64,000 nucleotides of DNA, from positions 620,001 through 684,000 of the forward strand of contig NW_020845264.1 of the NCBI RefSeq assembly GCF_003704095.1. The letters run 5' to 3'. The notes below the pieces were generated by a model. The model had not been told where the DNA came from, ran no database searches, and saw nothing but the letters and a program-made list of their open reading frames with translations. Source of the DNA: Pocillopora damicornis (Eukaryota). This document shows positions 61,662 to 62,132 of this stretch, piece by piece. The stretch's first letter is position 1; every line of letters begins with the position of its first letter. The translations under genes and the position numbers were made by a program.

Positions 61662-62132
61662 TCATAACAAAGAGAATTGTGTCAGCGCAATGGAGCGAAG
61701 CATATCAACTCTCTTTTGCCTTAAAGTTCTACCCGACATAGCTATTGTTCTTTTTTCGATCTCATCGCAAATCGCGTTTCGACGCTTCATCAGTAACGGG
61801 CTTGGAAGCCAACACTTTACTTCGCCACTAACAGCTGCAAGGACATGCGGATAACTGCCGCATGTGTCACGAGATCCTGGTTTACACTTCACTTCAGTCG
61901 GCGCTCGAGTTGTTGCAAAACACTGATTCTGTACAATTGAGCTTGAGCCTTTCACAGACTGAAGATCTAGAACCATCGAGCTCAAGCAACTTGGATCAAA
62001 TAGTTGTTTCTGTTCAGCGGCCTCGGGACTGTTTCCAGAGATTATAAGAAATCTTGTCTCATCGCAAACAGCTTTCTTCCTTTCCACAAAGCTCCGTCGA
62101 TTTGATATCTTGGCTTTAAGTCGGGCGTTCAT
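61662..62132 (-). CDS. Uncharacterised 156-aa protein with two R-[RK]-x-A-[IV]-C-D-E motifs
   Basis: ATG-initiated ORF, GC-richer than flanks, with internal protein-level repeats (RKKAVCDE / RRNAICDE; EVKC twice). Confidence 0.7.
   Translation of the reverse strand: MNARLKAKISNRRSFVERKKAVCDETRFLIISGNSPEAAEQKQLFDPSCLSSMVLDLQSVKGSSSIVQNQCFATTRAPTEVKCKPGSRDTCGSYPHVLAAVSGEVKCWLPSPLLMKRRNAICDEIEKRTIAMSGRTLRQKRVDMLRSIALTQFSLL

What the first reader, a model, noticed from the sequence alone, without database searches (positions are those of the whole stretch)
61662..62132. Orphan 156-aa protein that looks like a PKA pseudosubstrate inhibitor (PKI analogue)
Seen: RRNAICDE (aa 117-124, nt 61784-61761), a second copy RKKAVCDE (aa 18-25), a nearby IAMSGRT, and a hydrophobic C-terminal I-x-L-x-x-F-x-L. 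Established: PKI inhibits PKA through IASGRTGRRNAIHD, with Ala replacing the phospho-acceptor, and has a leucine-rich export signal; PKA RII subunits have a Cys at P+2 (RRVSVC). Inference: a lineage-specific, possibly bivalent or redox-sensitive PKA/PKG inhibitor. The upstream CREs would fit a cAMP negative-feedback loop. Caveat: PKI's P-6 Arg and P-11 Phe are absent (Leu at both positions), so affinity may be low.
Basis: partly seen in the sequence, partly recalled or inferred. Interest (0 to 1): 0.7.

Follow-up and report, generated by a model that had tools for sequence, protein, structure and literature searches.

The report
Coral family of likely kinase decoys
This real, spliced coral gene is one member of a large, unnamed family of coral and sea-anemone proteins that end in the same small module starting Arg-Arg-Asn-Ala-Ile-Cys, which likely acts as a decoy that plugs the active site of cAMP-dependent protein kinase, though no test of binding or inhibition exists.

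Summary
The ORF (61662-62132, minus strand, 156 aa) is real, present in RNA libraries and spliced through a 749-nt intron in its 5' leader. It is not an orphan: 122 of 124 proteins returned by four searches share a C-terminal module, RRNA[I/T]C-[D/E]-x-[I/L]-E...[S/T/N]-L-xxx-R, appended to otherwise unrelated, predicted-disordered N-terminal parts (31 groups); named members are from stony corals, an anemone and an octocoral. RRNAICDEIE is the most conserved stretch of the protein (98% identity in the orthologue group, against 28-48% upstream). It fits the PKA inhibitor consensus R-R-x-A-hydrophobic, equals PKI at six of seven positions and carries the RII-type Cys at P+2. The 'second copy' RKKAVCDE occurs in no other group member tested, IAMSGRT is a variable linker plus helix start, and the export-signal pattern is not family-wide, so 'bivalent' and 'PKI analogue with NES' are not supported. 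It is not a PKI-family member. Best reading (0.5): a pseudosubstrate arm on a helix-turn-helix minidomain that docks PKA-C, built more like Smoothened or an R subunit than like PKI. Function is untested.

The parts
61662..62132 (-). Single-exon coding sequence, 156 aa; N-terminal ~90 residues predicted disordered
   Evidence: in-frame TAA just upstream of the ATG; pLDDT 41-55 over aa 1-90; covered by one contig in each of 4 RNA runs
61761..61784 (-). RRNAICDE (aa 117-124): candidate pseudosubstrate site, P-3 Arg117, P-2 Arg118, P0 Ala120, P+1 Ile121, P+2 Cys122
   Evidence: R,R,N,A,C identical in 122 of 122 module-bearing proteins; 98% identity over aa 117-126 in 17 orthologue-group members
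61665..61775 (-). Predicted helix-turn-helix minidomain (aa 120-156): helix 120-128, turn with bridge 130/136, helix 137-152; near-invariant Glu126, Leu137, Arg141
   Evidence: AlphaFold2 with 87 sequences, pLDDT 92-93 over aa 121-156; column counts E126 87/87, L137 85/87, R141 86/87
61797..61808 (-). LPSP (aa 109-112): Leu at P-11 and a Ser-Pro site at P-9, conserved in the nearer groups only; possible proline-directed phosphosite (inference)
   Evidence: S111, P112 invariant in 27 of 27; Ser at P-9 in 47 of 122 overall
61833..61853 (-). Short predicted helix aa 94-100 beginning at a conserved Tyr; possible counterpart of the hydrophobic helix upstream of the PKI and Smoothened sites, but further away (inference)
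   Evidence: Y94 invariant in 27 of 27; helix 94-100 in both models
61668..61691 (-). I-x-L-x-x-F-x-L tail (aa 148-155), export-signal-like spacing, not family-wide
   Evidence: pattern in 62 of 122 members, 7 of 31 group representatives
62058..62081 (-).
   Evidence: second match in 1 of 52 proteins; alignment
62260..63008 (-). 749-nt intron in the 5' leader, GTATGT...CAG
   Evidence: joint 62259-63009 in contigs of runs X8 and X13, 2 of 4 runs laid; unspliced contigs also present; ends read
63009..63500 (-). Non-coding first exon (5' end not defined) with upstream ATGs, nearest at 63108, 63094, 63066 opening 2-4 codon uORFs
   Evidence: contigs cannot show a start
63144..63481 (.). Cluster of 7 ACGT cores: one full CRE TGACGTCA (63326-63333), TGACGTGA, TACGTCA, TACGTG, AACGTG and others
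   Evidence: 7 in 63100-63500 against a window mean of 0.78, the highest of 636 windows, interval chosen after looking
60640..61661 (-). Probable 3' untranslated region of about 1 kb with AATAAA/ATTAAA at 60962-60683
   Evidence: RNA contigs end at 60427-61082 depending on run; signals listed

Best explanation
[quoted passage not shown] Shown: the gene, its splicing, the family, and the invariance of R-R-N-A-x-C at the head of the module. Predicted: the two arginines sit on an extended arm in front of a helix-turn-helix held by Ile121/Ile125/Leu137/Met144 and the Glu126-Arg141 pair. Inferred: Arg117/Arg118 would bind the acidic cleft of the kinase, Ala120 would fill the phospho-acceptor site without being phosphorylated, Ile121 would enter the P+1 pocket, and the helices would give the auxiliary contacts that replace PKI's missing P-6 Arg and P-11 Phe, as auxiliary elements do in Smoothened and the R subunits; Cys122 would lie beside the kinase's Cys199 and could form a disulfide under oxidation. 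The variable disordered N-terminal parts would set where and when each paralogue acts. The uORF-bearing leader and ACGT-rich first exon region suggest an inducible gene, so the protein would damp PKA after a stimulus.
For: R-R-N-A-x-C in 122 of 122 module-bearing proteins across 31 groups with unrelated N-termini; in 16 of 18 hits of a word-free search, the exceptions being a bisulfite-converted copy of this gene and an unrelated 2,895-aa protein; in 37 of 37 non-query members that would have been found without the motif. Region identity peaks there: 0.98 against 0.28-0.71 upstream and 0.90 in helix 2. Fits the consensus R-R-X-S/(A/G)-hydrophobic shared by R subunits, PKI and ARHGAP36 (PMC5059767, passages); identical to PKI(5-24) at R-R-N-A-I-x-D (sequence in PMC7723848, passages); P+2 Cys is the RII position that crosslinks to C199, and Smoothened inhibits without the P-6 salt bridge (PMC13186710 section 7). 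In the deeper model aa 107-119 are non-helical. Two of 87 members score weakly on Pfam PKI at this site (E 0.0097 and 0.11). True RRx[ST] sites are enriched in the N-terminal parts (11 against 4.1 expected in 31 representatives, 2 of 300 shuffles).
Against: Arg at P-6 in 4 of 122 and an aromatic at P-11 in 7 of 122. Thr at P+1 in 7 of 122. P0 never switches to Ser or Gly and P-1 is always Asn, whereas the PKA consensus allows any residue there; invariance of Asn, Cys, Glu126 and Arg141 says the whole surface is constrained and Asn/Ala/Ile may be helix-cap and core residues. The shallower model makes aa 112-128 one helix, motif included, and even in the deeper one the helix starts at Ala120, so binding needs local unwinding. 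Invariance in the distant groups is partly built in: 33 of 93 non-query members share fewer than two search words outside the motif. The Pfam PKI scores are far below the cut-off of 25 bits and are 1 of 44 weakly hit families. RRx[ST][ILVFM] sites are not enriched (2 against 0.9). Full CREs are common in this window.
Confidence: 0.5

Rival explanations
1. The module is a docking minidomain for a non-kinase partner with an acidic surface (scaffold, transcription cofactor, transport or degradation factor); RR are electrostatic anchors, Asn119 caps the helix, Ala/Ile/Cys pack in the core, and the likeness to PKI is coincidence.
For: Conservation extends over the whole helix-turn-helix, with E126, L137, R141 as fixed as the motif; motif partly or wholly helical in the two models; an RRx[AG]-hydrophobic word arises in 3.7% of shuffles; PKI's extra determinants are absent.
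Against: Two invariant arginines outside the folded part followed by exactly x-Ala-hydrophobic, in 37 of 37 members found independently of the motif, is the spacing kinases read; no candidate partner is pointed to by any result.
Confidence: 0.27
2. It is a pseudosubstrate, but for another basophilic kinase (PKG, PRKX, Aurora, RSK or similar), with the helices giving the specificity.
For: The RRx-A-hydrophobic core is read by several basophilic kinases (established knowledge, recalled); PKA-specific high-affinity determinants are absent; Thr at P+1 in 7 of 122.
Against: R-R-N-A-I-x-D identity to PKI and the RII-type P+2 Cys both point to PKA.
Confidence: 0.13
3. It is a divergent IER/SERTA-type helix-loop-helix that binds the B55 subunit of phosphatase PP2A.
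For: Same gross build: small helix-loop-helix on a disordered protein, single coding exon, Lys late in helix 1 (K127 in 64 of 87); B55 binders are diverse helices (PMC11446282, passages).
Against: The published helix-1 consensus is met by 0 of 122 modules, helix-2 by 2 of 122, both by 0 (consensus from 10.1101/2023.08.29.555174, passages); the essential Ser is Glu or Val here and a B55-contacting Leu position is the invariant Arg141 under my register (inference); the module is C-terminal, not N-terminal.
Confidence: 0.07
4. One reading: a bivalent PKI analogue with two pseudosubstrate copies and a nuclear export signal.
For: Both words and the hydrophobic spacing are present in this one protein.
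Against: Second copy in 1 of 52 proteins; export-like spacing in 7 of 31 group representatives, and it lies on the second helix of the predicted fold.
Confidence: 0.03

Closest known systems
[quoted passage not shown]
   Same: R-R-N-A-I-x-D identical at 6 of 7 positions from P-3 to P+3; small, largely disordered protein; hydrophobic helix C-terminal of the site.
   Different: Site near the C-terminus, not the N-terminus; no P-6 Arg or P-11 Phe; Cys at P+2; predicted folded helix-turn-helix directly after the site; basic (26 K/R, 14 D/E); 156 aa, family up to 412 aa; below the Pfam cut-off.
PKA regulatory subunits RI and RII (inhibitor site)
   Same: Ala at P0 as in RI-alpha; Cys at P+2 as in RII; site followed by a structured part that could give auxiliary contacts.
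   Different: No cAMP-binding domain and no dimerisation/docking domain (no Pfam family above cut-off); so not released by cAMP.
Smoothened C-terminal PKA pseudosubstrate; ARHGAP36 (RRGAV); PDE7A1 N-terminus
   Same: Non-PKI proteins that inhibit PKA-C through R-R-x-A-hydrophobic; Smoothened also lacks the P-6 salt bridge and relies on auxiliary helices.
   Different: Those are single sites in larger proteins of known domains; here the site is part of a repeated family module on unrelated disordered proteins; no sequence homology beyond the motif.
IER2/IER5/SERTAD/CDCA4 helix-loop-helix PP2A-B55 binders
   Same: Short helix-loop-helix on a disordered, intronless-CDS protein.
   Different: Consensus not met (0 of 122); module C-terminal; invariant RRNA arm has no counterpart.

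Membership tests
PKI family (PF02827) | Match to Pfam PF02827 above the gathering score (25 bits) | tested here: not met
   P0001 no hit at E<=10; best member 16.6 bits, 2 of 87 members listed
PKI family (PF02827) | Pseudosubstrate core R-R-x-A-hydrophobic | tested here: met
   RRNAI in P0001; RRNA[IVM] in 115 of 122, RRNAT in 7
PKI family (PF02827) | P-6 Arg and P-11 aromatic on an upstream helix | tested here: not met
   Leu at both in P0001; Arg at P-6 in 4 of 122, aromatic at P-11 in 7 of 122, large hydrophobic at P-11 in 68 of 122
PKI family (PF02827) | Inhibitor site N-terminal, export signal after it, about 70-76 aa | tested here: not met
   Site lies 26-46 residues from the C-terminus in 111 of 122; median length 160; PKI layout from PMC7723848
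PKI family (PF02827) | Leucine-rich nuclear export signal | tested here: inconclusive
   Spacing pattern present in P0001 and 62 of 122, 7 of 31 representatives; function not testable
PKA pseudosubstrate inhibitors (functional class: PKI, RI, SMO, ARHGAP36, PDE7A1) | P-3/P-2 Arg, P0 Ala/Gly, P+1 hydrophobic, conserved and accessible | tested here: met
   for conservation; aa 107-119 non-helical but helical from 112, so accessibility is predicted only
PKA pseudosubstrate inhibitors (functional class: PKI, RI, SMO, ARHGAP36, PDE7A1) | Measured binding to and inhibition of PKA-C, synergistic with Mg-ATP, lost on RR mutation | not testable with these tools
   needs a bench assay
PKA regulatory subunit | Cyclic-nucleotide-binding domains and D/D domain | tested here: not met
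   no such Pfam hit in P0001 or among the families listed for 87 members (only 25 of 44 weak families were shown)
IER/SERTAD PP2A-B55 binders | Helix-1 and helix-2 consensus of the IER/SERTAD superfamily | tested here: not met
   0, 2 and 0 (both) of 122 modules, my regular-expression rendering of the consensus
IER/SERTAD PP2A-B55 binders | Same helical-hairpin fold | tested here: inconclusive
   fold searches with small predicted helices are not discriminating

The most novel reading that the evidence does not exclude
Anthozoans have built a whole superfamily (at least 31 groups seen here, several in tandem copies) of inducible, disordered proteins that carry one shared PKA-decoy minidomain in which a PKI-type site and an RII-type P+2 cysteine are combined, so that oxidation could lock the decoy onto the kinase's Cys199: a natural redox latch on cAMP signalling in corals, relevant to heat and light stress.
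Probability: 0.2. Interest if true: 0.85.

Novelty: new variant of a known kind. Interest (0 to 1): 0.58.

Why it matters
Endogenous PKA decoys are few and known mainly from vertebrates. An unannotated module kept invariant across stony corals, anemones and octocorals, and reused on dozens of unrelated proteins, marks an important interaction whatever its partner. If the partner is PKA, corals have a large, separately evolved set of brakes on cAMP signalling, with a cysteine placed where oxidation could fix them to the kinase; this is cheap to test with a 50-residue peptide and commercial PKA, and would give a function to many 'uncharacterized' anthozoan genes at once.

Tried and rejected
Complex prediction of the module (aa 100-156) with an unnamed metazoan PKA catalytic subunit (L076, a stand-in; coral PKA was not obtained), ATP and Mg: verdict 'no answer', runs 0.02, 0.83, 0.02, alignments not used, controls not folded; not counted for or against. 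PDB sequence searches with P0001, A2 and A4: nothing meaningful. ESM Atlas: no usable hit for the whole protein or aa 105-156. Pfam: no family above cut-off. No relatives in prokaryote genomes or viral contigs. Rfam 56000-64000: nothing. No whole genome is held, so paralogue number and promoter conservation were not tested; no second member in the window. Paper searches: 'RRNAI' anywhere returned 743 papers, the 30 listed all unrelated RNAi strings; RRNAIC and five accession terms returned 0 papers; searches listed no paper on a cnidarian PKI-like family; one search returned 0. Supplementary tables were not searched and could list these genes as differentially expressed. Rejected: bivalent model; orphan status; BH3, AKAP and calmodulin-site readings of helix 2 were considered from recalled patterns only (invariant Arg141 falls where BH3 and AKAP helices need a small residue) and not tested.

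Full report
The observation. The ORF is as described: 61662-62132 on the minus strand, 156 aa, first ATG after an in-frame stop. RRNAICDE is aa 117-124, RKKAVCDE aa 18-25, IAMSGRT aa 130-136, with Leu at P-6 and P-11. The window is animal DNA (rhodopsin-type GPCRs, a nuclear receptor exon, a fucosidase exon), and the runs that hold it are labelled coral or marine. Contigs of all 4 RNA runs laid cover the coding sequence, and 2 of the 4 join 62259 to 63009, removing a 749-nt GT...AG intron from the 5' leader, which shows processing on the minus strand. Contigs give no level and no start site.

It is not an orphan. A first search gave 26 relatives at 44-99% identity, a word-free search 18 hits, profile searches (both to E<=10). 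Of the 124 distinct proteins, the query included, 122 carry RRNA[IVTM]C; the other two are a bisulfite-converted copy of this same gene (61 of 62 residues match the C-to-T reading) and an unrelated 2,895-aa protein. The site lies 26-46 residues from the C-terminus in 111 of 122. By similarity outside the module the proteins fall into 31 groups. The few named records are Desmophyllum pertusum, Acropora digitifera and A. muricata, Actinia tenebrosa and Paramuricea clavata, so the family spans stony corals, anemones and octocorals; most records are unnamed, so restriction to Anthozoa is not shown. Equal contig lengths for different members (215,170; 1,433,958; 302,717) suggest tandem paralogues (inference).

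What is conserved. In 17 members of the query's own group, identity to P0001 is 0.42 (aa 1-16), 0.48 (17-35), 0.28 (36-90), 0.41 (91-108), 0.71 (109-116), 0.98 (117-126), 0.54 (127-133) and 0.90 (134-156). R117, R118, N119, A120, C122 and E126 are invariant in an 87-sequence alignment (87 of the 122), L137 and R141 nearly so. Because the word-indexed searches favour proteins with the motif, I checked the bias: of 93 members that were not queries, 37 share search words outside the motif and also score on a motif-free profile, and all 37 keep it; 33 of 93 share fewer than two such words, so for the distant groups invariance is partly built in.

Predicted shape. With 52 sequences AlphaFold2 gave a disordered N-terminus, a helix 112-128 that includes the motif, and a helix 137-152. 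With 87 more diverse sequences confidence over aa 121-156 rose to 92-93, aa 107-119 became non-helical and the first helix started at 120. The module is therefore best seen as a basic arm in front of a small helix-turn-helix. The two models disagree on the arm, and both would need the P0 to P+2 residues to unwind for a kinase cleft.

How it most likely works. The arm matches the consensus R-R-X-S/(A/G)-hydrophobic shared by PKA R subunits, PKI and ARHGAP36 (PMC5059767, passages). It equals PKI(5-24) at R-R-N-A-I-x-D (PMC7723848, passages). Ala at the P-site marks pseudosubstrates such as PKI and RI (PMC13167742 and PMC6143667, passages). Cys at P+2 is the RII residue that crosslinks to C199, and putting Cys there in Smoothened traps it on PKA-C; Smoothened also lacks PKI's P-6 salt bridge, binds about 1,000-fold more weakly as a peptide and gains affinity from auxiliary contacts (PMC13186710, section 7 and passages). 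That is the nearest design to this module, which has Arg at P-6 in 4 of 122 and an aromatic at P-11 in 7 of 122. Minor support: weak Pfam PKI scores at the site in 2 of 87 members, far below cut-off, and excess RRx[ST] words in the N-terminal parts (11 against 4.1 in 31 representatives), though not of the stricter RRx[ST]-hydrophobic form. I put 0.5 on PKA-C as partner. The main rival (0.27) is a non-kinase partner, since Asn, Cys, Glu126 and Arg141 are as fixed as the arginines and P0 never varies; another basophilic kinase gets 0.13; an IER/SERTA-type B55 binder 0.07, its consensus being met by 0 of 122 modules.

Regulation. One full CRE lies at 63326-63333, but the window has 5 against 0.61 expected, and RNA contigs run past it, so it may sit in the first exon; a TATAAA lies at 63550. 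The region 63100-63500 has 7 ACGT cores, the most of 636 windows, chosen after inspection; the flanks would also suit other bZIP and bHLH factors (recalled), so cAMP control is one option among several. Short uORFs precede the intron, CpG observed/expected is 1.02-1.07 over leader, intron and coding sequence against 0.70 for the window, and the bisulfite-derived record shows its CpGs converted, all of which fit an unmethylated, inducible gene (inference).

Comparison and novelty. It is not a member of the PKI family (profile, layout and upstream determinants fail) nor an R subunit. It works, if the reading is right, like the non-PKI pseudosubstrates. No Pfam family covers the module and a full-text search for RRNAIC and five accession terms found 0 papers; subscription papers and supplements were not seen. 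Earlier scan notes hold no look-alike sequence; two fungal notes on RRxA words, one favourable and one judged chance, are leads only. Verdict: a real gene in a large undescribed anthozoan family with a strikingly invariant module; new variant of a known kind if it is a PKA decoy; interest 0.58.

Noticed in passing
P0033: This database protein is a bisulfite-converted reading of this very gene (61 of 62 match to the C-to-T, TGA=W translation), with its CpGs converted, which suggests an unmethylated gene body in that sample.
   Followed up: yes
P0002, window 61647-62132: The 161-aa cluster representative with a WIFFY tail is this gene read with TGA as Trp (159 of 161 match), most likely a gene-calling artefact.
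   Followed up: yes
P0106: Actinia tenebrosa member is named 'probable serine/threonine-protein kinase fhkB' but shows no precomputed Pfam domain and is a low-complexity protein ending in the module; the name looks like a mis-annotation.
   Followed up: partly
window 53964-54197 (-) and 57666-57977 (-): Two exons with Kunitz/BPTI-type cysteine spacing (recognised by eye) downstream on the same strand; not part of this transcript.
   Followed up: no
window 46428-47948 (-), 48670-50397 (-), 51527-53044 (+): Three intronless paralogous ORFs of 430-575 aa, two with weak GDSL/SGNH hydrolase scores below cut-off; a cluster of bacterial-looking esterase-like genes.
   Followed up: partly
window 3818-4702, 8349-9266, 11206-11550 (+): Tandem intronless rhodopsin-type GPCR genes; the third looks partial.
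   Followed up: partly
window 26693-27271 (+), 23433-23966 (-), 29918-32488 (-): Nuclear receptor ligand-binding exon (CpG o/e 0.17), alpha-L-fucosidase exon, and an 856-aa low-complexity ORF without Pfam match.
   Followed up: partly
window 62054-62030 region, aa 23-33: A second, weaker motif (C-D-E-T-R-W-L-L-I-S) is shared by several groups of the family; its role is unexplained.
   Followed up: no
L001:921-2119 and L003: Intron-split eukaryotic PKA-like kinase gene inside a contig filed with a bacterial MAG, and a second kinase fragment in another MAG: probable eukaryotic contamination.
   Followed up: partly
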